Source: Candidatus Latescibacterota bacterium (GTDB lineage Bacteria > Latescibacterota > UBA2968 > UBA8231). From it: a stretch of DNA of 64,000 nucleotides. The stretch is from contig OZ253462.1 of NCBI GenBank assembly GCA_965261395.1, positions 2,912,001 to 2,976,000 on the forward strand. Direction: 5' to 3'. The translations under genes and the position numbers were made by a program. The notes beneath the pieces were generated by a model, which searched no databases, was not told the DNA's origin, and saw nothing but the letters and a program-made list of their open reading frames with translations. Positions 50,192 to 64,000 of this stretch are shown here, one piece after another (positions within the stretch are counted from its first letter, which is position 1; the number at the start of each line of letters is the position of its first letter).

Positions 50192-51173
50192 GCCCGGTCC
50201 CGCGCAGCAAGGTTTCCTGCACTAAAAGCTCGTGGTCGAGTGAGCGGTCTGGCCCGTGCTCGCCCTTGAGCACTCGTACAAGGGACGCCAATTCGAGTTC
50301 GTAGAGTCCCTGCCGCGAAATTCCTTCAAAAGGCACCATTTGCATGCCTTCTGCATAGCCGTCGGCTGCCTCGGTCAGGCAGAGCCGGATGGTGTGGCCC
50401 GGCTCAAAAGGCTCTAGCAAAATCGCGCTGCCGCGCTCGCCATAGACTTCAAAGCGCCGGGCCATCGGCTGTGGCTCCATCGCCGCAATATCGACCCAGG
50501 CCATGGCCCGCTCGTATTCAAAAACGCCGAGCGTGTTGTCTTGAAACGCAGGCACGATTCCGGTGTCGTTGCGCAGGAAGGTCGTCACCTTGTCCGGCCG
50601 CCCCAGAATCCACACCACTTGGTCGAGCATGTGCCCGGCCAGATCGTAGAAGATGCCGCCGTGGTGACCGGCGGCGATTACTTCGCGCCCGGCTGTGGTA
50701 ATGTTGGTGGACATGTGGGCGCGCACCGAATAGACATTGCCCAAAACCCCCGACCGCGCCCACGCCGCGATCTGGCTGAAGCCAGGATGGTAGCGCAGCA
50801 TAAAGCCCATTTGCACTTGTAGATCGGCGGCCTGCGCCTCCGCTACGACCCGCTGCCACTGCGCCCAATCGTCCCCGGCGGGCTTGTCGTACCACACGTG
50901 CTTGCCGGCTTGGACGATGCGCCCGGTTTGGTCCAGGCTCTCGTCGTTGCGGCCCTCGGAGGCGACGGCGACAATGGAGCTATCGCCGAGCAGCTCTTCT
51001 TCACTGTCCAAGAAGCGGACCTGTCGATAGGGTTCGTCGTCGGCAACTTGTCGGCGGCGCTCGTCGTCGGGTTCGTACAGGCCGACGACTTCGACTTCGG
51101 GGTTGTCGAGCATTGCCTTGAGTTTGCCGGCGGCGTGCCCGTGCTTGGTGCCGTATTGCGCCATGCGGATCAT
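50178..51173 (-). CDS. Gfo/Idh/MocA oxidoreductase
   Basis: AGKHVWYDKP, GFMLRY, DLAGHMLD. Confidence 0.88.
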   Translation of the reverse strand: MIRMAQYGTKHGHAAGKLKAMLDNPEVEVVGLYEPDDERRRQVADDEPYRQVRFLDSEEELLGDSSIVAVASEGRNDESLDQTGRIVQAGKHVWYDKPAGDDWAQWQRVVAEAQAADLQVQMGFMLRYHPGFSQIAAWARSGVLGNVYSVRAHMSTNITTAGREVIAAGHHGGIFYDLAGHMLDQVVWILGRPDKVTTFLRNDTGIVPAFQDNTLGVFEYERAMAWVDIAAMEPQPMARRFEVYGERGSAILLEPFEPGHTIRLCLTEAADGYAEGMQMVPFEGISRQGLYELELASLVRVLKGEHGPDRSLDHELLVQETLLRGTGLIAG

Positions 51174-51200
51174 GGGATCTCCTCGTTGTAAAGGGGGAAG

Positions 51201-51327
51201 CAAAACCCGAGCAAACGTTGAAAATTGTCGTAAGATACTGTTTTTACAAGATATTTTAACATCCGAGACATCCGCTTATCGCCCAAAATCAAAACCCGAT
51301 CAAACGTTGGCCTCTCACGCCCAAAAC
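51201..51327. repeat. ~127 bp direct repeat, copy 1 (copy 2 at 52867-52993), flanking the AlbA_2 gene
   Basis: High identity by eye; each copy contains two CAAAACCCGATCAAACGTTG-like 20-mers. Confidence 0.9.
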
Positions 51328-52778
51328 GGCACGTAGCCCGATTGCGGACGCTCGGGGTCGGCGACTTTGATGAGTTGCCGGTCTCGCGCTCGTCGGATCA
51401 CCTGCGACACTTGTGCGGCATTTCGCGTATCTATACCTAAACGTGCTCGCAGGCTGCTGTTTTTCATCAATTCTCCATTCACGAACTTCAATACGGCGTG
51501 CTGATAGCACGCCCGGATGCGCTCTTCGACCGTCATCGCGGCAAATCGGCGCGGCGCAAAAAGAACCGCACAAGTCGCCTCTATCCCGCCTTCCTGGACG
51601 CGAAAATCCGGTGGCGGCAACTGATAGAGCTCCACAGCCGCCACGACCTTGTCGATACCTGTACCTTGCTCCTCGCACAACTTCATGCGCCGCATGAAAG
51701 CGGCAAGTGCTTCGTTTCTCGAGCGCGGCGGGGAGTCGATAAACCGATTGGGGCTGATCAGAGGCTTGCCCGGATTGGTGACCTCCAGCCGATTGCTGAA
51801 GAGTTCAATCGACGGTCCGGCTCCGGTAATAGTCATGTCTTGGTGAATAAGCGCATTGGCGATCAACTCGCGGAGGGCAATCGGCGGGAACAGCGGCTGC
51901 TCGATTCGGAAAACTTGGTCAATTTGCTCGTTCCTCGGTAACAGCCGGTCGATAAACTCAACAAGCTTGGCAAAGCCAACGGCATAACCGCGTGGTTCGT
52001 CGTGCCGGTGGGTTACCACATCCGCGCGTCCCATTCCATTGTAGGCCGTGAAGCGCACCGCCTTACGCGCAATCCGCGAGTCGAACTCATCGAGGCGATT
52101 GGCAAACAGAATCGCGCCCAGATTGGTGATATTCCAGCGGCCACCGACATCCGGGGTGATGATTCGGTCTTGGTTCAATCGCTCCAAGATTGCTTGCGGA
52201 TTGGCCATCAGTGATTGGTCCATAAGCGCGAAATAGCTCGCATAGTCAATGCGGGCCAGTACGTCATCGTCTGTGAGGAACTGTGCGGCGATGCCGCTTT
52301 CCCAGAGGTATGGCTGGAGTTTGTTCCAGAGAGTTTTCTGACGGTCAGGATAATCGGATAAGCGCGGTGTCGCCGAACCGATTCGGCAATATGCAGTGCG
52401 CTCAAACTCCACCGGACTTGTGGTTGCGGAGGGAATCTCAAGCAGAACCAGCCTTCCCTCTGGATGCGCCACAATCTGAAATGTGAAGGCGACATCTGGG
52501 CTGAGCCGCTGCGCCAGCCAAAACGCCAGCGGCTGGCCATGGCGTTTGACGGCATCCGGATCAAAGTGCGTCCCGGTTATGGCGCGATCAGAATCCCGCA
52601 CCCCCCAAAGCAGATAGGCGAAATCTCGCTCTGCCAGCGCAGCGGCATTGGAAAGAGCCGAGATGTATTTGCCGATCACGGGGGGCGCAAAGTTGTTTTC
52701 CTTGAACTCAACACAGGTGGTTTCGGCAGACGCCGCCAGCAAATCGTCGATCAGCGCGAGGGTGCGGGTGTCGTTCAT
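51315..52778 (-). CDS. Schlafen/AlbA_2 + HATPase_c_4 + HTH protein
   Basis: VEFKEN, SALSN, LRELIANALIHQD, NPG, EEQGTGIDK. Confidence 0.88.
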   Translation of the reverse strand: MNDTRTLALIDDLLAASAETTCVEFKENNFAPPVIGKYISALSNAAALAERDFAYLLWGVRDSDRAITGTHFDPDAVKRHGQPLAFWLAQRLSPDVAFTFQIVAHPEGRLVLLEIPSATTSPVEFERTAYCRIGSATPRLSDYPDRQKTLWNKLQPYLWESGIAAQFLTDDDVLARIDYASYFALMDQSLMANPQAILERLNQDRIITPDVGGRWNITNLGAILFANRLDEFDSRIARKAVRFTAYNGMGRADVVTHRHDEPRGYAVGFAKLVEFIDRLLPRNEQIDQVFRIEQPLFPPIALRELIANALIHQDMTITGAGPSIELFSNRLEVTNPGKPLISPNRFIDSPPRSRNEALAAFMRRMKLCEEQGTGIDKVVAAVELYQLPPPDFRVQEGGIEATCAVLFAPRRFAAMTVEERIRACYQHAVLKFVNGELMKNSSLRARLGIDTRNAAQVSQVIRRARDRQLIKVADPERPQSGYVPFWA

Positions 52779-52993
52779 GCGTTCATCCCCCTGCGGTCCC
52801 GTCTAGTCGGCAGTGCGCCGTGCTTGGTGCCGCTTTGCGCCATACGGTCTCGCGGAAAGGTGGAATCAAAACCTGATCAAACGTTGAAAATCGTCGTAAG
52901 ATACTGTTTTTACAAGAGACTTTAACATCCGAGACATCGGCTTTGCGCCCAAAATCAAAACCCGATCAAACGTTGGCCTTTCACGCCCAAAAC

Positions 52994-53316: not shown

Positions 53317-56300
53317 CGGCTCATCCCCGCGTGTGCGGGAACATATTGCAGAGAGTCGCGGCGTAACAACTTCACCCGGCTCATCCCCGCGTGTGCGGGG
53401 AACATTTAATAGTTTGCCACATAATGTGGTTAACTAGCGGCTCATCCCCGCGTGTGCGGGGAACATACAATGTGAAATCTACGCTGGGGCACCGCATCCG
53501 GTTCATCCCCGCGTGTGCGGGGAACATCACCATTCGCAGATCGTAGTCGTTCACGCTAACGGTTCATCCCCGCGTGTGCGGGGAACATCAGGTTCATCGG
53601 ATATAGAGCGCCAGCGGCGACGGTTCATCCCCGCGTGTGCGGGGAACATTTGGTAGGCAACCCCCCATCATTGGACCAGGCCGGTTCATCCCCGCGTGTG
53701 CGGGGAACATATGCTGATGCTGGCGAGGGCGAAGGGGTTCATCCCCGCGTGTGCGGGGAACATCTCGACAAGGCCCGCGACCGGTCAGCCAAGACCGGTT
53801 CATCCCCGCGTGTGCGGGGAACATATGGTGGAGGTCATAGTCACCCTCTCCAAGCTCGGTTCATCCCCGCGTGTGCGGGGAACATTTGCAGATGTTGACG
53901 GGTGCATAATGCGTATCCGGTTCATCCCCGCGTGTGCGGGGAACATGATGTAAATTTCCTGTGTCGCGCGCCGTCTGCCGGTTCATCCCCGCGTGTGCGG
54001 GGAACATTTCACGCAGGCGGCCAAAGAAGGCAACGTCCGCGGTTCATCCCCGCGTGTGCGGGGAACATTCCCTGGTCTGCCGAACCGAATCGCTAAAATC
54101 CGGTTCATCCCCGCGTGTGCGGGGAACATATTAACGCTCATAGCATCCAGCCCCACCACGCCGGTTCATCCCCGCGTGTGCGGGGAACATGGGGTCAGAA
54201 TACCCATCAGGATATTTCCTTTCGGTTCATCCCCGCGTGTGCGGGGAACATCGCCCCAAGTGGTGCATCATGCACACCAAGGTCGGTTCATCCCCGCGTG
54301 TGCGGGGAACATTGCTCAATCCAAGTCGAACCCGATCTTTCGAGCGGTTCATCCCCGCGTGTGCGGGGAACATCGGCCTCAGTCCCTCTACAATAACATG
54401 ACCATCGGTTCATCCCCGCGTGTGCGGGGAACATCAACAGCTCGAAGACCTCATCGTCAGACAACTCGGTTCATCCCCGCGTGTGCGGGGAACATTGGTG
54501 GTGGTGGCCCTCCGCCGCCGATGTAAACGGTTCATCCCCGCGTGTGCGGGGAACATAGATTATGTATATATCGGCGCAACATCTACGCCGGTTCATCCCC
54601 GCGTGTGCGGGGAACATACCATGGCAACGCAAAACGTATTTCAGATCATCGGTTCATCCCCGCGTGTGCGGGGAACATCCACTTCGGTTTTTTTGAACGC
54701 GAAGGCTTCCCGGTTCATCCCCGCGTGTGCGGGGAACATCCACTTCGGTTTCTTCGAACGCGAGGGTTTTCCGGTTCATCCCCGCGTGTGCGGGGAACAT
54801 ACGACCTAGGATACAATTACAACTCAGCCGGCCGGTTCATCCCCGCGTGTGCGGGGAACATCAAGTCTCAGCCGAGCCCCATTTCTTCTCAGACGGTTCA
54901 TCCCCGCGTGTGCGGGGAACATAAAAACTCGCCTTTTTTGATCGCGTTGAACGCCGGTTCATCCCCGCGTGTGCGGGGAACATAAGCTCGGCCCCATGAC
55001 GTTGCGGTACTCTAACGGTTCATCCCCGCGTGTGCGGGGAACATCTGGGGCTTGAGCCTATGTCGGGGTCGCTTATCGGTTCATCCCCGCGTGTGCGGGG
55101 AACATTCGCAATGCCTTATTGCTTTGCGCGTCAACGTCGGTTCATCCCCGCGTGTGCGGGGAACATCTCCCTGTCGTCAAGGTGAAACAAGGTGCGACCG
55201 GTTCATCCCCGCGTGTGCGGGGAACATTTCGCGCAAGCCCTTTGCCGCTTCTGCGATCTCGGTTCATCCCCGCGTGTGCGGGGAACATTTCGTCAAAGCC
55301 TTTATGCTCGCCCGCAAAGCCGGTTCATCCCCGCGTGTGCGGGGAACATATGCTTGTAACCTTCTGAATGAGGTTGCAAGGCGGTTCATCCCCGCGTGTG
55401 CGGGGAACATTTCCCTATCGAGCAACAGCAGAGAATCAAAGTCGGTTCATCCCCGCGTGTGCGGGGAACATATCTCCTTCTTGACCGCGCTCGCGTCGAT
55501 GTCCGGTTCATCCCCGCGTGTGCGGGGAACATTTCGCATCTGAGCGCGTCCAGCACAAATTTCCCGGTTCATCCCCGCGTGTGCGGGGAACATTTTCGTC
55601 AAAGCCTTTATGCTCGCGTCGATGTCCGGTTCATCCCCGCGTGTGCGGGGAACATATGCAAGCAACCTGCTGAATGAGGTTGCAAGGCGGTTCATCCCCG
55701 CGTGTGCGGGGAACATCTATTGTATTGATTGTATTGAAACGCGAAACACGGTTCATCCCCGCGTGTGCGGGGAACATTAGGGTCAGTATCCTGCGAAGCG
55801 ATGCAATCCTGGTTCATCCCCGCGTGTGCGGGGAACATAAGCAACTGACGTATTGTATTGACGCGAAACACGGTTCATCCCCGCGTGTGCGGGGAACATT
55901 GTAAAGGAATCGCTCGCCGACTCGCTGCCGACGGTTCATCCCCGCGTGTGCGGGGAACATATCGCCAGTCAATGCAGTCCGGTAGAGTCAAGCGGTTCAT
56001 CCCCGCGTGTGCGGGGAACATACGGCGAAACTGCTCGACACCTATGTCGATAGCGGTTCATCCCCGCGTGTGCGGGGAACATACGCCGGGACAATCCGGC
56101 AAAACGCTTTACCACGGTTCATCCCCGCGTGTGCGGGGAACATATACAGATCAGATCAGATCAGATCAGATCAGCCGGTTCATCCCCGCGTGTGCGGGGA
56201 ACATTTTAAAATAGTGGTGGAAAGTGCTTGACAATGCGGTTCATCCCCGCGTGTGCGGGGAACATAAAAGGCCAGCGGTTAAAATTTAACTATTGACCGG

Positions 56301-57424
56301 TTCATCCCCGCGTGTGCGGGGAACATGTTTAACTCCCCTCACGGGAGGAGCCTATCACCGGTTCATCCCCGCGTGTGCGGGGAACATGCGCGCTCGGGGC
56401 TTTTCTCGATGCGCGTTTTCGGTTCATCCCCGCGTGTGCGGGGAACATAGGTAGGCCGTGTACGGCCCGGTTGCCGATACCGGTTCATCCCCGCGTGTGC
56501 GGGGAACATCGGTTTAACTGCCATTGCTGGCAGCCCATCACCGGTTCATCCCCGCGTGTGCGGGGAACATTGCGATAGGGAGCGCGTTTATTGTGCGTGT
56601 TACGGTTCATCCCCGCGTGTGCGGGGAACATTCTCAATTATTGCTTGTGTTGGTATCGGCTACCGGTTCATCCCCGCGTGTGCGGGGAACATCGGTTTAA
56701 CTCCCGTCGCCGGGAGCCCATCACCGGTTCATCCCCGCGTGTGCGGGGAACATTTCTGCAAAGCCTTTATGCTCGTCCTCAGGGCCGGTTCATCCCCGCG
56801 TGTGCGGGGAACATTGTAAAGGAAACGCCCGCCGGCTCGTCGCCGACGGTTCATCCCCGCGTGTGCGGGGAACATTCCGGTTGGAACAAGGTAGGTTTTT
56901 CCTGCTACGGTTCATCCCCGCGTGTGCGGGGAACATGTGTGGGCTGAACTTTGGATCAGCCCGTGCGGCGGTTCATCCCCGCGTGTGCGGGGAACATCCT
57001 TGTGAGTGTGCTGCGTTTCCTGGGCTGAGCGGTTCATCCCCGCGTGTGCGGGGAACATAATATCGGCCAGCTTGGCCGATACAATGTTCGCGGTTCATCC
57101 CCGCGTGTGCGGGGAACATTGAGCAACTTCGGCAATCAGCAAGGCAAGGGCCGGTTCATCCCCGCGTGTGCGGGGAACATCCTCTATCGTCAAGTATCTC
57201 TGGGTGCTGCGTCGGTTCATCCCCGCGTGTGCGGGGAACATCGGGTGCTAATGGCGTTGAATAGTGCGAGTAGCGGTTCATCCCCGCGTGTGCGGGGAAC
57301 ATCTGGTATTCTTCGTCCAGGTGTTTGCGAGCATCGGTTCATCCCCGCGTGTGCGGGGAACATAATACCCGCACTCACATGAGGTAAATTTCAATCGGTT
57401 CATCCCCGCGTGTGCGGGGAACAT
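53317..57424 (-). CRISPR. Type I-E CRISPR array, 68 repeats/67 spacers, repeat ATGTTCCCCGCACACGCGGGGATGAACCG
   Basis: 29 bp repeat, 61 bp period, mostly 32 bp spacers; degenerate repeats at the 53317 end, leader next to cas2; counted by eye. Confidence 0.98.
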
Positions 57425-57529
57425 ACTTAATCGTAACTGCTTGCTACAGTTTAGGTTATATGCCATGCAAAATAGCTACCGACTATTTGACCCCCGATTC
57501 ACCCACTCCACATATGCCGAGAACATACT
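57425..57529 (-). promoter_or_regulatory. CRISPR leader
   Basis: AT-richer non-coding segment between cas2 stop and first repeat. Confidence 0.75.
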
Positions 57530-57808
57530 TCACTCAGGCAAAAAAGATACGAGTCGAAGACCGTCAAAATCCACAGGTATCCGGCGGTTTGTGCCAAAGG
57601 TTTCAAACTCAAACCCCGCGTCATTGGGGGCGGCCCAAGCAATCACAGCATCACCGTCGCCGATGAGCTCGCACACATTGTCGCGGATCATAGCGCGGGT
57701 CTTTGCCGAGTAGTTGCCGATATAGACACCGGCTCGAAGTTCCAGAAGCCAAACCGCGAGCCGGCCCCGCAGGCGCGGCGGCACATTATTAGTCACCACT
57801 ATCATCAT
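57530..57808 (-). CDS. cas2: Type I-E Cas2
   Basis: VPPRLRGRLAVWLLELRAGVYIG, PVDFDGLRLVSF. Confidence 0.96.
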   Translation of the reverse strand: MMIVVTNNVPPRLRGRLAVWLLELRAGVYIGNYSAKTRAMIRDNVCELIGDGDAVIAWAAPNDAGFEFETFGTNRRIPVDFDGLRLVSFLPE

Positions 57809-58752
57809 CCTCGATGGCCCTCATCTCCGCTTGAAGGTGGATCGGCAAAGGCCGGGCCTACCGCATCATCTGGCATTTTCGGCGGCGGCAACTCGCCCGC
57901 TGCGAGCACTTCTCCGATGGTTGGAATCAGTCGCCTGAGCAGCTTGGTTCTGCGGAACGTGTCCCGACACGCCAAGCGCACTTCGCGCACAGGCTCGGCA
58001 GAACGCCCCTTCGCGTGCTGTCCCGCAATGCGAAACGCTGTCGGCACCGCCGTCTCAAATTTGAATAAATCGGCAATGTCGTACACAAAGGAGAGGGGTT
58101 TACCAGTATGCAAGAAGCCGACTGCTGGGGCATATCCAGCCGCGAGCACGGCGGCTTCCGTAATGCCGTAGAGGCAGGCAGTTGCTGCCGAGAGGCAGCG
58201 GTTGGGCACATCGGAGAAGTTCCAATCCGAAGGATCGTAGCTGCGCCTTTTCCACTGTACTCCAAACTGCCGCGCCAAATTCTCATAAAGCGCACGTACA
58301 CGCGCCCCCTCAATTCCGCGAAGCTGTTCGACAGAACGGCGTTGCGGCGCTCGCTCGTCAAATCGGATTTGATACATCCGCCGCACGATCTTCAGCCGAG
58401 CGTCGGGGTCAAGCGCGAGGCGGCACTGCCACAGAAGCCTGTCGGACCGGGCACCTCCCGGCTGACCAGCCGCGTATAGGCGCACCCCGGCTTCACCGAC
58501 CCATATCAGCAAAGTACCGACCCGTGCGGCGAGTGCCACTGCAGCATGACTGACCCGCGCACCAGGTTCGAGCATGATGCAAGCCAACCCGCCAACGGGG
58601 ATGTGCGTCCGCACCCCCTTTACATCTACGAGCACAAAAGCTCCATCGAGTACGTCGAGTTGGCCCTTCTCCACAAAAACGATAGAGGTGCGGTCCTTTA
58701 TGGGGATCGGCTTGGGGGGCGGAGCACCCGGCATTCTGTCAGGGCTAGCCAT
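57805..58752 (-). CDS. cas1: Type I-E Cas1
   Basis: MLEPGARVSHAA, GEAGVRLY, LRGIEG, GFLHTGKPLSFVYDIAD. Confidence 0.97.
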   Translation of the reverse strand: MASPDRMPGAPPPKPIPIKDRTSIVFVEKGQLDVLDGAFVLVDVKGVRTHIPVGGLACIMLEPGARVSHAAVALAARVGTLLIWVGEAGVRLYAAGQPGGARSDRLLWQCRLALDPDARLKIVRRMYQIRFDERAPQRRSVEQLRGIEGARVRALYENLARQFGVQWKRRSYDPSDWNFSDVPNRCLSAATACLYGITEAAVLAAGYAPAVGFLHTGKPLSFVYDIADLFKFETAVPTAFRIAGQHAKGRSAEPVREVRLACRDTFRRTKLLRRLIPTIGEVLAAGELPPPKMPDDAVGPAFADPPSSGDEGHRG

Positions 58753-58775
58753 CAAGCGATCCTGCGTATAAGCGA

Positions 58776-58865
58776 TGGTTCATCCCCGCATGTGCGGGGA
58801 ACACAGAGGTAGTCATCAGGCGATCCTGCGCATGAGTGGGTCATCCTCGCGTGTGCGGGGAACAT
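58776..58865 (-). CRISPR. Mini-array (2 repeats, 32 nt spacer) at the cas6e/cas1 junction
   Basis: Repeats at 58776-58804 and 58837-58865; flanked by duplicated CTGCGTATAAGC. Confidence 0.92.
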
Positions 58866-59608
58866 CTGCGTATAAGCATCAGGCCGCAGCCAAATGCCTT
58901 GCCGCGCCCGAATCCCTGCCGAAGGCGGGCGAGAAACGAGTTAGGCTCGGTTATGGTCAAAGCACCTTTGAGGTCGAATATGCCCAAAGTGCCGAATTTC
59001 CCACCGCGCCGTGCGAAACGCTCGGCTCGATAGCCTTCGAGCATCAGTGCGTCAAGGCAGAATCCGTATGCTTCGGCCCGCGCCGCTAGCCAGTCGTAGG
59101 CCGCCTTTTTGGCAAACTGCATCCGATACTTGGCGCGGTTGAGGGATTCATCCCCGCGTGTGCGGGGAACATTCTTGAGCAAGTCCATGGCCACATCGCA
59201 GCGTTGCCGTATGGCCGGTTCATTCCCGTGTGTGCGAGAAACTTTCCGATCGACCGTGGCGTTAAGGCGCAGATCGAACGCCAGCCGGTCTCCTGGCGAG
59301 AGTGTCGGCTCGAAGGGCTTCGTCTCGATAGCGAAGAAGGGAGAGTCTTCCAAAGGCTTGGGGCCGAGAAGATAGTACCGCCCGCGCTGGCGGTCGGCCC
59401 GCCAAAGAAACGCGGATTTCGGCGTACCGGCAGTCCGGCTCTGCTCTACCTCAGTACGCACATTTGGCGGGATGACCGTCCAGATCAGCCGGTGATCTAC
59501 CGCGAGGCGGTCAGACGACTTTGATGGCTGAAGGACCTGTAGCAGGGGAGCTATGTCTGCGGCGTCGCGCCGGAGCGTAAGACGCGAAAAGTGGAGTGGC
59601 TCACTCAT
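58841..59608 (-). CDS. cas6e: Cas6e (Cse3) crRNA endoribonuclease
   Basis: HRLIW, LAFDLRLNAT, C-terminal GFGRGKAFGCGL G-loop. Confidence 0.95.
   Translation of the reverse strand: MSEPLHFSRLTLRRDAADIAPLLQVLQPSKSSDRLAVDHRLIWTVIPPNVRTEVEQSRTAGTPKSAFLWRADRQRGRYYLLGPKPLEDSPFFAIETKPFEPTLSPGDRLAFDLRLNATVDRKVSRTHGNEPAIRQRCDVAMDLLKNVPRTRGDESLNRAKYRMQFAKKAAYDWLAARAEAYGFCLDALMLEGYRAERFARRGGKFGTLGIFDLKGALTITEPNSFLARLRQGFGRGKAFGCGLMLIRRCSPHTRG
59144..59244 (-). CRISPR. Two CRISPR repeats embedded in frame within cas6e
   Basis: 59144-59172 matches consensus 27/29, 59216-59244 matches 24/29. Confidence 0.88.
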
Positions 59609-60321
59609 TGCGAAGCCTCCTCTTGGTCAGTGGGAACGTATTCGTATTCGCGCCGTTGCCCGAACTGCCAGCTCGTGCGGTCGCCCGGCTCGTCCATCCG
59701 CAGTCGCATCCGCAAGGAAGCATCGAGAGGACCGAGGTCCGCCCGATCCTCCACGGCGATTAGGCCATTCGGCCCATCGCTATGGCGCTTGAACGCATCA
59801 ACGACCGTTTGTGCTTCAATGATCTCCGGCGCGAGTGGGTGGGACAGTGGGCAGGACTTGCGCCCTAAATACAATGTATAAGCTGGCTTCTCAAACCCAG
59901 CTTTGAGGTCCCGCAACGAGTATCGTCCGCCCGATATGGCTCGGTAAGCCGCCTGATAGCGCACATCTGTGCGGTACTCTCGGTGGGTGATACTCGTCGC
60001 AAGGTCCAAGGGATGGGAAAGTGCCTCCGCTCTAGTTCGGGGATGTCCCTTGGCCGAAGGCAGCGACTGGTAAGTGTGAAAATCCGTCACCAACGTCCCG
60101 GCGCACAGGGTGCGAGTAGCGACGCGGAAAGAGGCAGCAAGCGCCCGCTGCCCTTCCGCATCGGCGCGATCAATACCCAGCGCCGCGCCCGCCATCCCCA
60201 AAAGGGCAGATCGCGTTGGACGGTCGGCCGTGCCACGCCGCACATTGCCTGCCTCTTCGCCGAAGCTGGCAAAGGGTGCGGCCAAGGTAATAATTAACCA
60301 TTTCCTCGGTTCACCATTCAT
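59605..60321 (-). CDS. cas5e: Cas5e
   Basis: APFASFG, PTRSALLGMAGAALG, DFHT, LYLGRKSCP. Confidence 0.95.
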   Translation of the reverse strand: MNGEPRKWLIITLAAPFASFGEEAGNVRRGTADRPTRSALLGMAGAALGIDRADAEGQRALAASFRVATRTLCAGTLVTDFHTYQSLPSAKGHPRTRAEALSHPLDLATSITHREYRTDVRYQAAYRAISGGRYSLRDLKAGFEKPAYTLYLGRKSCPLSHPLAPEIIEAQTVVDAFKRHSDGPNGLIAVEDRADLGPLDASLRMRLRMDEPGDRTSWQFGQRREYEYVPTDQEEASQ

Positions 60322-60353
60322 TTTAGTCCCTTCGGGAATATATGTGGTTCGTG

Positions 60354-60443
60354 CGGTTCGTCCCCGCGGATACGGGGAACATCCTACGTGTAGTTGGATG
60401 TCGTCGCTTCAATCCGGTTCATCCCCGCAGGTGCGGGGAACGT
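60354..60443 (-). CRISPR. Mini-array (2 diverged repeats, 32 nt spacer) between cas7 and cas5
   Basis: Repeats at 60354-60382 and 60415-60443 with intact stems. Confidence 0.9.
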
Positions 60444-60462
60444 TTTGCCAAATAGCAAATTG

Positions 60463-61521
60463 CTACAGTTCCTCCGCTGCGAAGGCGGCTAGCTCCTCCA
60501 ACATGGCACTATCCTCTTCACCTACATGGAGTTCGCTGGCTTCCCAATCGTCGTCGTAGGTCTTCGCAAAGGCGGTACGCTGCTTCTTGAGTACCTTTAC
60601 GGACTCCCCGAGTTGGTCTTCCGATTTTACCGGCTTGGTGAAGGCACTAGCCAAGCTGCGAGGTTGGCTATCCCCGCGCTCTAACAACATGTATTCGGCG
60701 CGTACGTGATTGGCGAAGCTGTTTTTCTTACCGGAAGGCGATGCGGTCGCCGCAGCGCGTACTAGCGCGGAGAGCGCACGGCCTGCCAGTTCTGTATCGC
60801 TCGCAAGATTTTCCAGCAGCAGGACCCTATTTACGCAGATGTAGAGATAGAAGACGCCAGCGCCGAAACCCGCCTCTCCGATGAAACCCGCGCCCGCATC
60901 CTCTTCTGGGGTCTTCAGATCGTCAACAGCCGTGTAGTAGTCATCTTCAATATCGACTCGGTTGGTGGTAAAGGCATGAGCCACTTGCACGGCGGCATCG
61001 CGGTTGAAGTCGGGGTTGTCAGCCAACATGCGCCCGAACATAGCAATGTCCACGGCACCGTCGGCAGTGCTTAGGACCTGTTTCGCCAGTTCCTTTTCCT
61101 TCGGTAAGGTTTCCCCGCTCAGTGCCTTTTCTGCCAAATCGAATGCAGCAGCGCGTTCCTCCGGCGAGATGAAGGCTAGCTGTTCGGTATAGGCCGGATT
61201 TGGGTCTTTCTCATTCTTTACTTTACCGAACAGAGCAGCGATGGTCCGGGCGATTTCGAGCGCCTTGTCCTCCGAAGCACCCTTTTCTAGCAGATGCTCT
61301 CGCACCTTGTCGCCCATACGCTGCGTGCGCTCGCCTAGCTTTCCCGTTAGGGCGGACCGGAAAGCGTCGTCCGTGCGGATGGCGCGTTTGAGGGCTTGGC
61401 TGGAAATGCGCATCCGCGACACACCGCCGATGAAAGCGGTCTTGGGACGGCCGAGGTCGTCTCGGTTGGGGTTAGACGGTGGATAGGCTGTCAGAACGTG
61501 CATTTGCACAAAGCGGCTCAT
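60463..61521 (-). CDS. cas7: Cas7 (Cse4)
   Basis: PSNPNRDDLGRPK, RISSQALKR, DIAMFGRMLA, DYYTAVDD. Confidence 0.97.
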   Translation of the reverse strand: MSRFVQMHVLTAYPPSNPNRDDLGRPKTAFIGGVSRMRISSQALKRAIRTDDAFRSALTGKLGERTQRMGDKVREHLLEKGASEDKALEIARTIAALFGKVKNEKDPNPAYTEQLAFISPEERAAAFDLAEKALSGETLPKEKELAKQVLSTADGAVDIAMFGRMLADNPDFNRDAAVQVAHAFTTNRVDIEDDYYTAVDDLKTPEEDAGAGFIGEAGFGAGVFYLYICVNRVLLLENLASDTELAGRALSALVRAAATASPSGKKNSFANHVRAEYMLLERGDSQPRSLASAFTKPVKSEDQLGESVKVLKKQRTAFAKTYDDDWEASELHVGEEDSAMLEELAAFAAEEL

Positions 61522-62090
61522 AGTTGAGTCTCCTCTTGGGGTTGGGTGTTCTCTGCGGCATCGGTCCGCCGCGTGTGATAGTAATCAAAGGTCCATTTCT
61601 GCCGAGTCTGGTCGTTAAAGAAAAGCACATCGCCGATAAAGCGAGGAACGTCGAATGGCGCATCGCCCAAAATAGCAAGGGTCCGGCGCAGTGCCCGTGC
61701 GAACATGTCCACATCAGTGCCATCCTTGAGCAGGTTGCTGAAGCGCATGGGCGACAGGCGTGGACGGGCGTCGCCTTTGGGGATGGAACCATCCCACGTG
61801 AGGCCCAAGGCGTCAGCGAAGGGGGGGAGATGGGCGGTCCTCTCGGAGGGTTTAACCCGCGCAAGGGCCATAGCCAGCACGGCGAGGCGCTGCTCAAGCG
61901 CGTGGCCGGCGGTAGCCTTTTCATGCACACTGGCGATCAACCTGTGGGTTTCTGGCTCTAAGAGGGCGTCGAATACGCTTTCGCAGCGCTTCAGCCGCGC
62001 CCGTGCACCCCGGTCTCCGTGGTCCGCGTGAAGCGATACCCACCAGTTCACCACTGCATTGACGGTAGGGTTATTTCGGTTGAGCTGCAT
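61518..62090 (-). CDS. cse2: Cas11 (Cse2) small subunit
   Basis: DRGARARLKR, LSPMRF, W..DYY; position in operon. Confidence 0.9.
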   Translation of the reverse strand: MQLNRNNPTVNAVVNWWVSLHADHGDRGARARLKRCESVFDALLEPETHRLIASVHEKATAGHALEQRLAVLAMALARVKPSERTAHLPPFADALGLTWDGSIPKGDARPRLSPMRFSNLLKDGTDVDMFARALRRTLAILGDAPFDVPRFIGDVLFFNDQTRQKWTFDYYHTRRTDAAENTQPQEETQL

Positions 62091-63748
62091 TAAGCGGTCT
62101 CCTTTTTGGTTTTGGATTTTTTCTCTGGCAAAGGAAGTTCGAGCTTGTCGTAAAGCGACTTGCTCTGCTTGGTCCAGCCAGCAAAGGTTGCGTTCAAGAT
62201 GCCGTAGGCATTGACGATTGTCTTGGCCTTCTCGGCGTCTTGCAAGGGCACGGGTGCCAGTCGGTCAAAAGTCGCAAGGGCTGCGCGGCGCATGATACCT
62301 AGCCAGTGCCGTGCGAGAGCGGTCTGGTCGAAGCCCCCATCTTCGGGCATTTCTTGGAGCAGATCGTCGAGCAGGTGGTGGAATTGGTCCTCGGTTGCGT
62401 CGAAGAAATCAGCCCGCGCTTGGTCGAGAATCCCCTTATCGTTTGAGGCATTCTTCTGGCCGCTGAAAAGTGCCTTTTTCAAGGCTGTTAACAACTGAGA
62501 AACCGCTTGATCGGCGGCTTCGGAGAAATGTCGGGCGAGATCGTCGAGAGCCTGTTGTTGATCGGATGTATTCGCCAGATGCAAAGGCTCCTCGGCGATG
62601 AGATAGGCGATTGCTTCCATGTTGTTCATGGCCCAACCGCCAACGCGGATGCGAGCATCGGCCGCTTGTTTATTCTGGCTAAGGGAATGGGAGCGATTAT
62701 TCTTGGAGAGCTTGATATTTGTGGGCTGTTCAGCCAGCTTGCCATCCTTGCTCCCTACCGTGACGGCAACCCAGTCTCGATAGCCAAAGCGTCCTGATTT
62801 TGGCTTGGCCGAATACGGCTCCCCTGCCTCTTTCAGGCGGCGGTAGGGCGTCAGCGGATGCTGCCATAGCCCATAATTTGTGCCGTAGGGCCTCTGGATA
62901 AATCCGGTGACCAGCGGTTCTTTTCTGCCGGTCATGGAGCAGATGCCCGGCTCGCTGGAAAAGACTAGCTGGATGCGGCGCGGCATACCGAAATACGCCT
63001 GCAAGGGGTGGGCGTCTGCTAGAGATACAGTACGACTTTTTTCCGATGTGAGTGTCGGGGCCATCCAAGGCAGGGCCTTGGGCAACTCATCTATTGGGAG
63101 TCGTTTATCGCAAGGCACCACATTGGCGAAAATTTTGTGCCACAAAGGCACGGGCGTTGCATCGTCATTAGTCGCCGGAACGACCAGTGCCGTCAAAGGC
63201 CCGCCTCCACGCATGGAAGTGCGGTTCCCGGCACCGCCGGCCGGCGCGTAGGCTTGCAGGGTGTACAGCGTCATGGCCGCAGCCGGTAGGCCAAGGGCAG
63301 CATAGCGGTTGCGGTGAGTCAATAGGTCCGAGTTTTTGCGCTGGCCGTTTTGCCCTGGTGTGTCGATGAGCAGTAGTTCAATAGGAGTTTCGTTGCCTTG
63401 CAGGGGCTCATAGTCCTGTAGGAAGCGCGGCCCTTCGCCGTTGAGATAGAAGGCAGAAACAAGAGGGGCGAGCTTTTCGGCGAGCGCGTCTCTATCCGGC
63501 GGATTGGTCCAAAAAGGACGCCAGTCGTCCTCTTCGCGGATATCGAAGGCCAACGAAATCACGCCGATGCAGAACTCGAAGCTCGCCATGTTGAAATCCG
63601 GGCGCGGCCAGTTAAACTCGACCGGGTAGTCTTCATCCAAGCCGTTGCTTTTGGGTCCAGCCACTAGTTCGGGAAAGGCAAGCCATCTCTGTGCTCCAGA
63701 TCGCATGACGACCGGGAGAAAGGGATCACTGAGCAGATTAAAAGTCAT
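62090..63748 (-). CDS. cas8e: Cas8e (Cse1) large subunit
   Basis: FNLLSDPFLPV, PRPDF, F.L.GEGPRFLQD, APAGGAG..MRGGGP, MPRRI, HPLTPY. Confidence 0.95.
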   Translation of the reverse strand: MTFNLLSDPFLPVVMRSGAQRWLAFPELVAGPKSNGLDEDYPVEFNWPRPDFNMASFEFCIGVISLAFDIREEDDWRPFWTNPPDRDALAEKLAPLVSAFYLNGEGPRFLQDYEPLQGNETPIELLLIDTPGQNGQRKNSDLLTHRNRYAALGLPAAAMTLYTLQAYAPAGGAGNRTSMRGGGPLTALVVPATNDDATPVPLWHKIFANVVPCDKRLPIDELPKALPWMAPTLTSEKSRTVSLADAHPLQAYFGMPRRIQLVFSSEPGICSMTGRKEPLVTGFIQRPYGTNYGLWQHPLTPYRRLKEAGEPYSAKPKSGRFGYRDWVAVTVGSKDGKLAEQPTNIKLSKNNRSHSLSQNKQAADARIRVGGWAMNNMEAIAYLIAEEPLHLANTSDQQQALDDLARHFSEAADQAVSQLLTALKKALFSGQKNASNDKGILDQARADFFDATEDQFHHLLDDLLQEMPEDGGFDQTALARHWLGIMRRAALATFDRLAPVPLQDAEKAKTIVNAYGILNATFAGWTKQSKSLYDKLELPLPEKKSKTKKETA

Positions 63749-63792
63749 TGATATCTCCTTAAAATATATAACTAACCAACAGCTTACTACAT

Positions 63793-63821
63793 ACTCTAAA
63801 GAGGCAATCGTACCTTGTCAA
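63793..63821 (-). promoter_or_regulatory. Predicted cascade operon promoter TTGACA-17-TAGAGT
   Basis: Consensus -35 at 63821-63816, -10 at 63798-63793, AAGGAG RBS at 63760-63755. Confidence 0.75.
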
Positions 63822-63842
63822 GGGCAAGTTGCGGTCCATCAT

Positions 63843-63919
63843 TAATTAATCCCCGTGTGTACGGGGAACACGTTAGCCGACAGCATACTACGGCTCATTC
63901 CCGCGTCTGCGGGACAACA
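63843..63919 (-). ncRNA. crRNA-like regulatory RNA (CreR-type mini-array) with 19 nt spacer targeting the cas8e promoter
   Basis: Two diverged repeats with compensatory stems; spacer matches 63771-63789 with ATG PAM. Confidence 0.85.
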
Positions 63920-64000
63920 AATCTAAAGCCCAGTCGGGCACAGTACATAAAATAACCGTCATCCTTCGCCCCTTCCAATCGCACCCTACTGCCCCCTTCT

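What the first reader, a model, noticed from the sequence alone, without database searches (positions are those of the whole stretch)
58776..63919. Whole cas operon punctuated by eight extra-array repeats: a multi-layer RNA self-regulation circuit
Seen: repeat copies start at 63891, 63843, 60415, 60354, 59216, 59144, 58837 and 58776. All are on the cas sense strand and most keep pairable stems despite divergence. The three intergenic spacers each resemble sequence of the cas locus itself (promoter, cas7 end, cas6/cas1 junction). Inference: Cas6e could dice the polycistron into cas8-11-7, cas5-cas6' and cas1-2 segments with different stabilities, tuning Cascade stoichiometry (Cas7 is the multi-copy subunit) and adaptation, while Cascade represses the promoter. 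An alternative is ectopic repeat insertion or recombination focused on the cas locus.
Basis: partly seen in the sequence, partly recalled or inferred. Interest (0 to 1): 0.88.

Follow-up and report, generated by a model that had tools for sequence, protein, structure and literature searches.

The report
CRISPR repeats scattered inside cas operon
A complete type I-E CRISPR-Cas locus carries four extra two-repeat mini-arrays: one is a known kind of self-repressor of the cas promoter, and the other three, one of them in frame inside cas6e, hold pieces of the cas genes themselves and look like healed self-attacks that may now let Cas6e cut its own messenger RNA.

Summary
All eight repeat copies sit at the stated coordinates on the cas sense strand, and nowhere else in the 6.55 Mb genome. 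The locus is an intact type I-E system.

Mini-array A overlaps the cas3 stop. Its 19-nt spacer matches a site with an ATG PAM directly after the -10 box of the cas8e promoter. It occurs in 10 of 10 related loci, spacer and target co-vary, and it is far more conserved than silent sites. This is the published CreR/crlRNA type of autorepressor.

Mini-arrays B, C and D are unusual. Their spacers come from the cas operon itself, and AAG, AAG/AAA or ATG flanks the ancestral sequence. Each lies at or within 80 nt of its own protospacer. C flanks native cas6e codons in frame, and Cas6e still models well.

I read B-D as fixed products of self-targeting. Cas6e cutting of the operon mRNA is a probable but untested consequence. 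Only B looks conserved (4 of 10 loci). C has decayed in a relative, and D is unique to this genome.

I found no description of such intra-operon arrays in what I searched.

The parts
63895..64000 (-). 3' end of cas3. The whole gene is 927 aa and runs to window coordinate 66678, beyond the window. Its last codons and TGA stop (63897-63895) lie inside repeat A-R1.
   Evidence: ORF. Pfam Cas3_HD 3.3e-35, Cas3-like_C_2 2.2e-35, DEAD.
63891..63919 (-). Mini-array A, repeat 1 (21/29). The stem is kept by a C-G to U-A change.
   Evidence: Present in 10 of 10 related loci.
63872..63890 (-). Mini-array A spacer, 19 nt (sense TAGTATGCTGTCGGCTAAC).
   Evidence: 0 differences from L046, L047, L049 and L050.
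63843..63871 (-). Mini-array A, repeat 2 (22/29). The stem is kept by a C-G to U-A change, and the 3' end has degenerated.
63793..63821 (-). Promoter-like site of cas8e: TTGACA, 17 nt, TAGAGT (10 of 12).
   Evidence: the best of the 6 sites found in 57400-64000.
63771..63792 (-). ATG PAM (63792-63790) plus the target of spacer A (63789-63771). 14/19 match; the mismatches are at positions 6, 12, 15, 18 and 19.
   Evidence: It is the only genome hit to the seed that has a consensus PAM.
62090..63748 (-). cas8e (Cse1), 552 aa.
   Evidence: Pfam CRISPR_Cse1 5.6e-79.
61518..62090 (-). cse2/cas11, 190 aa.
   Evidence: Pfam CRISPR_Cse2 8.1e-11.
60463..61521 (-). cas7, 352 aa.
   Evidence: Pfam Cas_CT1975 8.2e-100.
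60521..60552 (-). Relic protospacer of spacer B inside the cas7 3' end. 20/32 here, with GAC in place of the AAG seen in relatives, plus a 3-nt deletion.
60415..60443 (-). Mini-array B, repeat 1 (26/29, perfect stem).
60383..60414 (-). Mini-array B spacer, 32 nt. 29/32 identical to the cas7 of relative L049, where AAG precedes it.
60354..60382 (-). Mini-array B, repeat 2 (25/29, stem with one U-G pair).
59605..60321 (-). cas5, 238 aa. Its start was rebuilt by the B insertion (MNGEPRKW against MTEW in loci without B).
   Evidence: Pfam Cas_Cas5d 7.4e-33; alignment.
58841..59608 (-). cas6e, 255 aa. It reads through mini-array C in frame and ends at a TGA inside repeat D-R1.
   Evidence: Pfam CRISPR_assoc 1.6e-33 over residues 6-248. 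AF2 model pLDDT 86.1.
59216..59244 (-). Mini-array C, repeat 1 (24/29, weakened stem). It encodes KVSRTHGNEP and replaces the ancestral KVGVDSQGK loop and its AAG.
59173..59215 (-). The 43-nt 'spacer' of C. This is native cas6e coding sequence (AIRQRCDVAMDLLK) still in place.
59144..59172 (-). Mini-array C, repeat 2 (27/29, perfect stem). It encodes NVPRTRGDES in a loop of variable length.
58837..58865 (-). Mini-array D, repeat 1 (26/29, one C-A mismatch in the stem). It supplies the last 6 codons and the stop of cas6e.
58805..58836 (-). Mini-array D spacer, 32 nt. A diverged copy of the cas6e-stop/cas1-start junction.
   Evidence: (family D13).
58776..58804 (-). Mini-array D, repeat 2 (26/29, perfect stem).
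58741..58772 (-). Retained protospacer of spacer D (26/32), now preceded by TCG. Relatives have ATG there (8 of 8).
57805..58752 (-). cas1. The ATG is at 58752; the ORF listing starts the ORF at a TTG at 58755.
   Evidence: Pfam Cas_Cas1 5.2e-16; alignment.
57530..57808 (-). cas2 (I-E type), 92 aa.
   Evidence: Pfam Cas_Cas2CT1978 4.1e-33.
53317..57424 (-). Main CRISPR array: 68 repeats, mostly 61-nt period, transcribed in the sense of the cas genes. The leader is 57425-57529.

Best explanation
This is a complete type I-E CRISPR-Cas locus: cas3, cas8e, cse2, cas7, cas5, cas6e, cas1, cas2, leader and a 68-repeat array.

1. Mini-array A is a CreR/crlRNA-type autorepressor. It is transcribed behind cas3 and cut out by Cas6e. 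Its 19-nt guide loads Cascade onto an ATG-flanked site that starts 3 nt after the -10 box of the cas8e promoter, which lowers Cascade expression. At 19 nt, with mismatches, the guide is too short to bring Cas3 cleavage.

2. Mini-arrays B, C and D are not regulators of DNA targets. Their spacers were taken by Cas1-Cas2 from the cas operon itself. The ancestral sequence carries AAG, AAG/AAA or ATG directly 5' of each. Each unit now lies at or within 80 nt of its own protospacer, whose PAM or seed is destroyed. I read them as fixed survivors of self-targeting. CRISPR repeats were copied next to the attacked protospacer, most simply by break repair templated on the array. The self-spacers may have been primed by the short guide A acting on the operon's own promoter.

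3. A consequence is that the cas polycistron now carries six Cas6e-type hairpins: between cas7 and cas5, inside the cas6e ORF, and before cas1. Active Cas6e should therefore cut its own operon transcript, giving negative feedback on cas5, cas6e, cas1 and cas2.

Shown: the anatomy, the origin of the spacers, the conservation and co-variation of A, and the intactness of the genes. Inferred: the repair mechanism, the priming, the RNA cleavage and any benefit.
For: **Locus intact.** Pfam matches all seven genes plus cas3. The 68 array repeats are near-identical.

**Mini-array A.**
- The target has an ATG PAM and starts right after TTGACA-17-TAGAGT, the best promoter-like site in the region.
- The mismatches fall at positions 6, 12, 15, 18 and 19. 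Positions 6, 12 and 18 are the every-sixth positions that do not pair; I saw this stated in a passage on I-F1 systems in PMC10120712, and its transfer to I-E is recalled.
- It is the only seed match in the genome with a consensus PAM.
- It is present in 10 of 10 related loci.
- Spacer and target changed together in L045: position 9 T to C and position 12 to A, in both. The Vicinamibacterales locus L053 has an unrelated spacer whose first 17 nt again match a site right after a -10 box.
- R1, spacer and R2 differ from L046 at 1 of 77 positions, against 52 of 244 fourfold sites in cas8e (Fisher p = 4.6e-6).
- A published precedent exists for I-E.

**Mini-arrays B-D.**
- Ancestral PAMs: AAG before the cas7 segment in 5 of 5 loci that lack B and keep the old allele. 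ATG before the junction segment in 8 of 8. AAG in 3 and AAA in 4 of the 8 relatives in which the cas6e segment was scored; 7 of these keep the ancestral flank, L045 has the repeat end CCA there, and L053 has CGC.
- C's spacer is the native codons in place, and repeat 1 replaces the PAM.
- D is an insertion flanked by a 12-nt duplication of GCTTATACGCAG.
- B carriers have a mutated cas7 protospacer.
- All three protospacers have the orientation of target A.
- No B, C or D spacer has a credible trans target.

**Priming.** The abstract of PMC5159557 says crRNAs with spacers down to 14 nt cause primed adaptation, and only those above 20 nt also interfere.

**Cas6e.** H39 and the GFGRGKAFGCGLM loop are kept. 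The AF2 model has pLDDT 86.1 and pTM 0.81. The repeat-encoded segments lie in blocks of pLDDT 71-80, in loops that vary in length across 31 homologues.

**B conserved.** 11 of 130 positions differ from L046, against 30 of 125 flanking fourfold sites (p = 0.001).
Against: - No RNA evidence exists. The two metatranscriptome runs gave only low-depth contig pieces and no ends.
- In the one relative that shares C (L045), both hairpins have decayed (7-8 mismatches, several unpaired cells). There the RNA element is not maintained.
- D is in 1 of 10 loci. Its first repeat and C's first repeat each carry a stem mismatch.
- Translating ribosomes may keep the in-ORF hairpins unfolded.
- The repair model does not fully account for the 11 native nt between C's 32-nt protospacer and repeat 2, nor for D having two repeats plus a retained full protospacer.
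- A point mutation in a PAM is a far simpler escape than a templated insertion.
- L050 lacks B yet has the same diverged cas7 segment as the B carriers. That divergence is therefore not tied strictly to B.
- None of 708 main-array spacers in the 10 loci matches a cas operon, so no self-spacer survives in an array as a witness.
- B's low divergence could reflect a recent recombination patch. The operon is visibly mosaic.
Confidence: 0.55

Rival explanations
1. All four mini-arrays are parts of one selected, multi-layer circuit. Cas6e cuts the polycistron into cas8e-cse2-cas7, cas5-cas6e and cas1-cas2 segments of different stability. This sets Cascade stoichiometry and adaptation levels, and Cascade also represses the promoter.
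For: - Hairpins are kept in most copies, with changes on both sides of pairs.
- The copies stand at gene borders: the cas3 stop, cas7/cas5 and cas6e/cas1.
- B is shared by 4 of 10 loci and is about 3 times more conserved than flanking fourfold sites.
- An independent repeat-like hairpin lies at the cas7/cas5 border, inside the cas5 start, of a distant locus, L100.
- A is functional by co-variation.
Against: - D is in 1 of 10 loci and C in 2 of 10, with decayed hairpins in the second.
- B and C have incongruent distributions in a mosaic operon.
- Most of the changes on both sides of pairs come from the A copies.
- Among the 109 other I-E loci in which an array was found (66 of 80 and 43 of 80), interior repeat-like hits were seen only in L046, L047, L051 and L100, plus two unexamined 5-mismatch hits in L099 and L199. 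Such a circuit is therefore not a general feature of I-E systems.
- There are no RNA data.
Confidence: 0.2
2. B, C and D are neutral scars with no present effect. They are left-overs of recombination between the array and the cas genes. Cas6e does not process them to any meaningful extent, and they are on the way to decay. Only A matters.
For: - C has decayed in L045, and D-R1 and C-R1 have stem mismatches.
- The C repeats differ between G000 and L045 at 7/29 and 8/29 positions (counted). That is close to the 0.38 fourfold divergence of cas6e.
- The repeats landed in Cas6e loops of variable length, where insertions are tolerated.
- No DNA targets were found.
Against: - Each of B, C and D keeps at least one hairpin with a perfect stem and 25-27 of 29 repeat positions. 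These lie inside a transcript that must be made if the system is expressed, and Cas6e has to recognise the same hairpin 68 times in the array.
- The B block is significantly more conserved than the neutral proxy.
Confidence: 0.22
3. Assembly artefact: array reads wrongly collapsed into the cas operon of a metagenome-assembled genome.
For: The genome is a MAG. This is inferred from the record titles of its close relatives. Repeats are a classic source of misassembly.
Against: - Contigs of run X2 cover C and D, B, and A with 0 differences. A variant strain in run X6 (21 differences, all in cas1) has the same C and D.
- Homologous mini-arrays occur in separately assembled genomes.
- The copies are diverged from the array repeat and in frame with the genes.
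Confidence: 0.01

Closest known systems
CreR (Cas-regulating RNA) mini-CRISPR of type I-E, described for Salmonella enterica (bioRxiv 10.1101/2023.03.10.532045; abstract and passages seen)
   Same: - Two degenerate repeats around a spacer, between cas3 and the first Cascade gene.
- Partial, PAM-flanked, 5'-anchored match to the promoter region of that gene.
- No toxin gene seen.
Mini-array A fits all of these.
   Different: - Here the spacer is only 19 nt and the PAM is ATG rather than AAG.
- The target abuts the -10 box, about 25-40 nt before the start codon, rather than about 140 bp upstream.
- Repeat 1 overlaps the cas3 stop codon.
- B, C and D have no counterpart in the passages I saw.
crRNA-like regulatory mini-arrays (crlRNA) surveyed across CRISPR-Cas types (PMC10120712; abstract and passages seen)
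   Same: - Mini-arrays in about 19% of bacterial I-E loci.
- Concentrated next to cas3, with the target in the cas8 promoter, downstream of the mini-array.
- Canonical PAM and conserved seed, and tolerance of mismatches at every sixth position.
   Different: - The passages seen place type I repeat-like sequences in long intergenic regions next to cas3 (next to cas6 in I-B).
- 'Inside' and 'within the cas' have 0 occurrences in the main text.
- Mini-arrays between cas7 and cas5, in frame in cas6e, or at cas6e/cas1, with spacers that are copies of the flanking genes, are not described there.
CreTA, the CRISPR-repressed toxin-antitoxin RNA pair of type I-B (as described in the passages)
   Same: A degenerate two-repeat mini-array inside a cas gene cluster, whose guide binds a neighbouring site by partial complementarity.
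   Different: - No toxin gene or toxin promoter target was found next to any of the four mini-arrays. I did not search for one systematically.
- B-D lack a usable PAM and seed target.
Non-canonical (ectopic) spacer integration by I-E Cas1-Cas2 that creates new CRISPR-like loci (recalled from the literature, not fetched here)
   Same: Array-like units appear outside the array. Cas1-Cas2 is implied by the PAMs of the spacers.
   Different: As I recall it, ectopic integration duplicates the local non-repeat sequence on both sides of the new spacer. Here the flanks are genuine CRISPR repeats, and the unit sits at its own protospacer.
Self-targeting spacers and their escape routes (review PMC6990116; search listing only)
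   Same: Spacers derived from the host's own genome, which co-exist with it only because the target or PAM is altered.
   Different: The usual escapes I recall are target mutation, spacer loss, cas loss or large deletions. I did not find conversion of the protospacer into an array-like unit described in searches.

Membership tests
[quoted passage not shown] | Gene set cas3, cas8e (Cse1), cse2, cas7, cas5, cas6e, cas1, I-E cas2, in this order. | tested here: met
   Pfam hits for all eight, all above the curated cut-offs. Order.
[quoted passage not shown] | 29-nt repeat with a GC-rich hairpin and about 32-nt spacers, with the array downstream of cas2. | tested here: met
   68 repeats, mostly 61-nt period. 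Hairpin.
CreR / crlRNA regulatory mini-array (applies to mini-array A) | Two repeat-like sequences around one spacer in a cas intergenic region. | tested here: met
   63843-63919 between cas3 and cas8e.
CreR / crlRNA regulatory mini-array (applies to mini-array A) | Spacer partly complementary to a site at the promoter of the effector genes, anchored at the 5' seed and flanked by a valid PAM. | tested here: met
   ATG PAM. Positions 1-5 and 7-11 match. The site starts 3 nt after the -10 box.
CreR / crlRNA regulatory mini-array (applies to mini-array A) | Conservation of the spacer-target relation among relatives. | tested here: met
   10 of 10 loci have the element. Co-variation in L045 and an independent spacer/target pair in L053. 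1 of 77 differences against 52 of 244 fourfold sites.
CreR / crlRNA regulatory mini-array (applies to mini-array A) | Cascade-dependent repression of the promoter. | not testable with these tools
   Needs a reporter assay.
CreR / crlRNA regulatory mini-array (applies to mini-arrays B, C, D) | A PAM-flanked, seed-matched target that could be bound. | tested here: not met
   - B: its own cas7 site has PAM GAC and mismatches at positions 7 and 8.
- C: the only match is itself, flanked by a repeat.
- D: PAM TCG and a mismatch at seed position 3.
- No better site exists genome-wide.
CreTA toxin-antitoxin module | A small toxin gene beside the mini-array, whose promoter is the guide's target. | not tested
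   No dedicated search was made. The target of A lies in the cas8e promoter, with cas8e directly behind it.
Ectopic ('neo-CRISPR') integration product | The new spacer is flanked by a duplication of local, non-repeat sequence. | tested here: not met
   The flanks are 24-27/29 identical to the CRISPR repeat. The defining feature itself is recalled, not taken from a call.
Functional Cas6e endoribonuclease (is the interrupted gene still a member?) | Full-length match to the family, conserved His and C-terminal glycine-rich loop, and a foldable protein. | tested here: met
   - Pfam PF08798 covers residues 6-248 of 255.
- H39 is nearly invariant and G232-M244 are invariant in 31 sequences.
- AF2 pLDDT 86.1, pTM 0.81.
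- T. thermophilus Cse3 is the best solved relative.
- Catalytic activity was not tested.

The most novel reading that the evidence does not exclude
The locus shows how regulatory mini-arrays are born. A short CreR guide that binds its own operon's promoter primes Cas1-Cas2 to take spacers from the cas genes. The resulting self-attack is survived when CRISPR repeats are copied next to the attacked protospacer. This 'CRISPRises' the protospacer in place: PAM replaced by repeat, even in frame inside cas6e.

Each such event leaves a spacer beside its own target, which is exactly the unexplained architecture of CreR and CreA elements. D would be a newborn, C a decaying one, B one that has been taken up, and A the old established regulator.

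The same events wire Cas6e to cut its own mRNA. That would give a feedback that senses free Cas6e and crRNA load.
Probability: 0.25. Interest if true: 0.8.

Novelty: new variant of a known kind. Interest (0 to 1): 0.62.

Why it matters
Regulatory mini-arrays next to cas promoters are now known. How they arise, and why they always sit beside their targets, is not. This locus holds one established regulator and three younger units built from the cas genes themselves, each beside or on its own protospacer. That series makes the origin question testable.

It also gives a natural case of CRISPR repeats translated in frame inside cas6e, the gene of the enzyme that cuts those repeats. That suggests a very direct form of negative feedback. 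If Cas6e really cuts its own operon transcript, expression of the adaptation and processing genes would depend on how busy Cas6e is with crRNA precursors or with RNA decoys from phages.

If B-D are only scars, they still record a route of escape from CRISPR autoimmunity that I did not find described.

Tried and rejected
- **RNA evidence.** I laid two metatranscriptome runs (X19, X20) on 57400-64000. They gave only 7 and 8 low-depth contig pieces, several with many differences, and no ends. Nothing can be said about processing or about uncovered parts. The 'joints' in that call are other arrays' repeat-spacer units mapping onto the repeats, not deletions.
- **Trans targets.** I searched the genome for seed matches (positions 1-5 and 7-11) of spacers B, C and D. 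There were 16, 33 and 11 hits, about the number chance gives. None combines a consensus PAM with an extended match.
- **Surviving self-spacers.** None of the 708 spacers taken from the main arrays of the 10 related loci matches a cas operon beyond 14-19 nt.
- **Second spacer of the three-repeat mini-array A of L045.** Its best match to any cas operon is 19/32. It is not self-derived.
- **Leader-like sequence upstream of the mini-arrays.** I saw no resemblance to the leader end (by eye).
- **A 'third spacer' in B.** The 32 nt between B-R2 and the cas5 ATG look like a spacer only in G000. Relatives have 23 nt there, and G000 has a 9-nt tandem duplication. A partial third repeat (GGTGAACCG at the new cas5 start) remains only a possibility.
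- **Period-6 mismatches in spacer D against its target** (positions 3, 6, 18, 24, 28, 30). I rejected this as evidence of Cascade pairing. Several are codon third positions, and four are shared with relatives' alleles.
- **Recombination breakpoints at the repeats.** The operon is mosaic, but the 300-nt identity profile does not place breakpoints clearly at the mini-arrays.
- **Metagenome scan.** It added one close relative (L125, with mini-array A only). Among its 43 loci with arrays there was no interior mini-array.
- **Not run.** Fold search and complex prediction.
- **Supplementary files.** They were closed. Table S5 and Supplementary files 3 and 4 of PMC10120712, and Figure S7 of the CreR preprint, could bear on the novelty claim.
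- **Not-in-print claims** rest on searches and on the passages.

Full report
**What is there.** The window is G000:C1:2912001-2976000 of a single-contig, 6.55 Mb genome. Its closest relatives are filed as Candidatus Latescibacterota MAGs.

On the minus strand lies a complete type I-E system (Pfam; ORFs):

| Gene | Window coordinates |
|---|---|
| cas3 | 66678-63895, mostly outside the window |
| cas8e | 63748-62090 |
| cse2 | 62090-61518 |
| cas7 | 61521-60463 |
| cas5 | 60321-59605 |
| cas6e | 59608-58841 |
| cas1 | 58752-57805 |
| cas2 | 57808-57530 |

A roughly 105-nt leader follows, then an array of 68 repeats (57424-53317), mostly at a 61-nt period. In the sense of transcription the repeat is ATGTTCCCCGCACACGCGGGGATGAACCG.

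**The observation.** All are in the sense orientation.

Genome-wide they are confined to this locus. 73 of 73 core matches with up to 3 mismatches lie here, and none for the reversed control. 75 of 75 matches at 22/29 or better lie here. At 21/29 there are three further hits elsewhere.

They form four pairs:

| Mini-array | Coordinates | Spacer |
|---|---|---|
| A | 63919-63843 | 19 nt |
| B | 60443-60354 | 32 nt |
| C | 59244-59144 | 43 nt |
| D | 58865-58776 | 32 nt |

I aligned 32 extra-array copies from ten related loci, 26 of them distinct. The 7-bp stem is a standard pair in 94.0% of 182 cells, and 12 cells changed on both sides. No shuffle of 500 reached these values, and slid registers give 43-65%. 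The unpaired cells fall in the C and D copies and at the closing U-A pair of the A1 copies.

Independent contigs confirm the arrangement. Run X2 covers 57400-59670, 60251-60729 and 62412-64000 without a difference. A variant strain in run X6, with 21 differences that all lie in cas1, has the same C and D.

**Mini-array A is a CreR-type autorepressor.** Its first repeat contains the cas3 stop codon, so it can be transcribed behind cas3.

Downstream lies the best promoter-like site of the region, TTGACA-17 nt-TAGAGT at 63821-63793. It is followed at once by ATG and then TAGTAAGCTGTTGGTTAGT. This matches the spacer TAGTATGCTGTCGGCTAAC at 14 of 19 positions, with mismatches at 6, 12, 15, 18 and 19. 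Of five genomic matches to seed positions 1-5 and 7-11, one is the spacer itself, and this is the only one with a consensus PAM.

The element is present in 10 of 10 related loci, and spacer and target co-vary:
- In L045 both carry C at position 9 and A at position 12.
- In the Vicinamibacterales locus L053 (66% Cas6e identity) an unrelated spacer matches, over its first 17 nt, a site that again begins right after a -10-like box.

R1, spacer and R2 differ from L046 at 1 of 77 positions, against 52 of 244 fourfold-degenerate sites in cas8e (p = 4.6e-6).

This is the arrangement published for I-E systems:
- CreR in Salmonella has 15 matching nt and an AAG PAM, and was shown to repress the casA promoter (bioRxiv 10.1101/2023.03.10.532045, abstract and passages).
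- Mini-arrays occur in about 19% of bacterial I-E loci, next to cas3, with targets in the cas8 promoter (PMC10120712, abstract and passages).

**B, C and D are made from the cas operon itself.**

*B.* Spacer B is 29/32 identical to the cas7 3' end of relative L049. It is 24-27/32 identical in L045, L048, L052 and L053. In all five of these the segment is preceded by AAG. The four loci that carry B (G000, L046, L047, L051) have a diverged version of that segment (20/32). G000 also has GAC in place of AAG and a 3-nt deletion. L050 lacks B but shares the diverged allele.

B is a roughly 140-150 nt insertion that replaced the overlapping cas7-stop/cas5-start junction seen in the six loci without it. 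It gave cas5 a new start.

*C.* The 43 nt between the repeats are the native cas6e codons for AIRQRCDVAMDLLK. They are conserved in all relatives and recognisable in 31 homologues as R.R.DV.MD. Eight relatives were scored. In L045 the flank is itself the repeat end CCA. Of the seven that keep the ancestral flank, the 32 nt that start this segment are preceded by AAG in three, AAA in four and CGC in one. In G000 repeat 1 stands exactly where that trinucleotide and the KVGVDSQGK loop were. Repeat 2 sits in a second loop of variable length. The frame is kept.

*D.* The spacer is a 26/32 copy of the cas6e-stop/cas1-start junction. The junction is preceded by ATG in 8 of 8 relatives. The unit is inserted after position 11 of that sequence, with a 12-nt duplication (GCTTATACGCAG) on either side. 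The full junction is retained behind it, now preceded by TCG. cas6e now ends at a TGA inside repeat D-R1.

*What follows.* Three spacers each preceded by a consensus I-E PAM, each within 80 nt of its source in a 5-kb operon, cannot be coincidence. These are spacers chosen by Cas1-Cas2, and they were placed by a local process.

**How they probably arose (inference).** None of B, C or D has a usable DNA target today. The products share one property: the protospacer has lost its PAM or seed. I therefore read them as survivors of self-targeting.

The simplest mechanism has three steps:
1. Cas3 damages the protospacer.
2. A broken end invades the only immune homologue, the spacer in the array 1.5-3 kb downstream. 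Synthesis runs into the flanking repeat.
3. The end re-joins through microhomology. AAGTT at the left edge of C-R1, and GGA..ACC at the right edge of C-R2, fit this.

This explains C-R1 well. It explains D and C-R2 only with extra steps.

A likely source of the self-spacers is guide A itself. In E. coli, crRNAs with spacers from 14 nt up cause primed adaptation, and only those above 20 nt also interfere (abstract of PMC5159557). Guide A is 19 nt. All three protospacers have the orientation of target A, as I-E priming would give; that strand rule is recalled.

None of 708 array spacers in the ten loci targets a cas operon today. The donors are gone.

**What they do now (inference).** The genes look functional:
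- Cas6e matches its family over residues 6-248.
- It keeps H39 and the invariant C-terminal loop.
- Its model has pLDDT 86.1 and pTM 0.81, and the repeat-encoded residues 122-131 and 146-155 fall in blocks of 71-80.

The operon transcript therefore contains six Cas6e-type hairpins. At least one in each of B, C and D has a perfect stem. Cas6e, which must cut the same hairpin in the array, should cut the transcript between cas7 and cas5, inside its own ORF, and 23 nt (repeat end) to 31 nt (the expected cut, 8 nt before the repeat's 3' end) before the cas1 start codon. That amounts to negative feedback on cas5, cas6e, cas1 and cas2. It would also yield crRNA-like species. A 43-nt spacer can be accommodated by Cascade (abstract of PMC5009729).

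**Evidence for selection is uneven:**
- B differs from L046 at 11 of 130 positions, against 30 of 125 flanking fourfold sites (p = 0.001). A recent recombination patch in this mosaic operon could give the same result.
- C is shared only with L045, where both hairpins have decayed.
- D is unique to G000 and its near-identical strains.

**How unusual it is.** Arrays were detected in 66 of the 80 genome loci and in 43 of the 80 metagenome loci found with Cas6e. In these, interior repeat-like sequences (22-mer, up to 5 mismatches) were seen only in:
- the three B carriers;
- one distant locus, L100, where a repeat-like hairpin lies in the cas5 start codons;
- two unexamined 5-mismatch hits, L099 and L199.

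That threshold misses decayed copies such as those of L045. I found no description of in-ORF or intra-operon mini-arrays with self-derived spacers in searches or in the passages read. Supplements were closed.

**Verdict.** A is a new member of a known kind. B-D are a new variant: self-derived mini-arrays at their own protospacers, one translated inside cas6e. Their origin and their effect on RNA remain to be tested.

Noticed in passing
window 54651-54800 and 55288-55716: Some array spacers are near-duplicates. Two neighbouring spacers are about 80% alike (54678-54711 against 54739-54772). A block of two spacers recurs five units later at 63-89% identity (55288-55410 against 55594-55716). This points to repeated acquisition from variant targets or to a diverged internal duplication of the array (families D2 and D4).
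   Followed up: no
window 51139-51327 and 52818-52993: Two direct repeats of about 140-190 nt (90-92% identical), 1.67 kb apart, bracket a 487-aa gene (51315-52778, minus strand). The gene has Schlafen AlbA_2 and HATPase_c_4 domains and lies just beyond the distal end of the array. It looks like an insertion with a duplicated flank.
   Followed up: partly
L100:6240-6300 (an 'uncultured proteobacterium' MAG, by its record title): In a distant I-E locus a repeat-like hairpin (GTGTTTCCCGCGCGGGCGGGGA, 3 mismatches to a 22-nt core of that locus's repeat) lies inside the first codons of cas5 (MIATRDGVSRAGGDF...), right after the cas7 stop. This is an independent case of a repeat at the cas7/cas5 border. 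In this locus the array follows cas6e directly.
   Followed up: partly
L045:2814-2951: In relative G008 the upstream mini-array has three repeats. The regulatory 19-nt spacer is followed by two perfect repeats around an ordinary 32-nt spacer that has no match in any cas operon. This suggests the mini-array can itself receive spacers or recombine with an array.
   Followed up: partly
window 58306-58663 (cas1): A strain in run X6 differs from the window at 21 positions within these 360 nt of cas1. It is identical across the adjacent mini-arrays C and D. This is a sharp recombination patch, in line with the mosaic identity profile of the whole operon among relatives.
   Followed up: no
window 60444-60461: The 18 nt before repeat B-R1 (AATTTGCTATTTGGCAAA) contain the palindrome TTTGC-N6-GCAAA. 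They are identical in all four loci that carry B, and L046 has part of them duplicated. This could be a protein-binding site or a small hairpin.
   Followed up: no
L050 and L051 (two contigs of one MAG, G005): One genome holds two closely related I-E loci with identical Cas6e scores. One has mini-array B and a degenerate A. The other has an intact A and no B.
   Followed up: no
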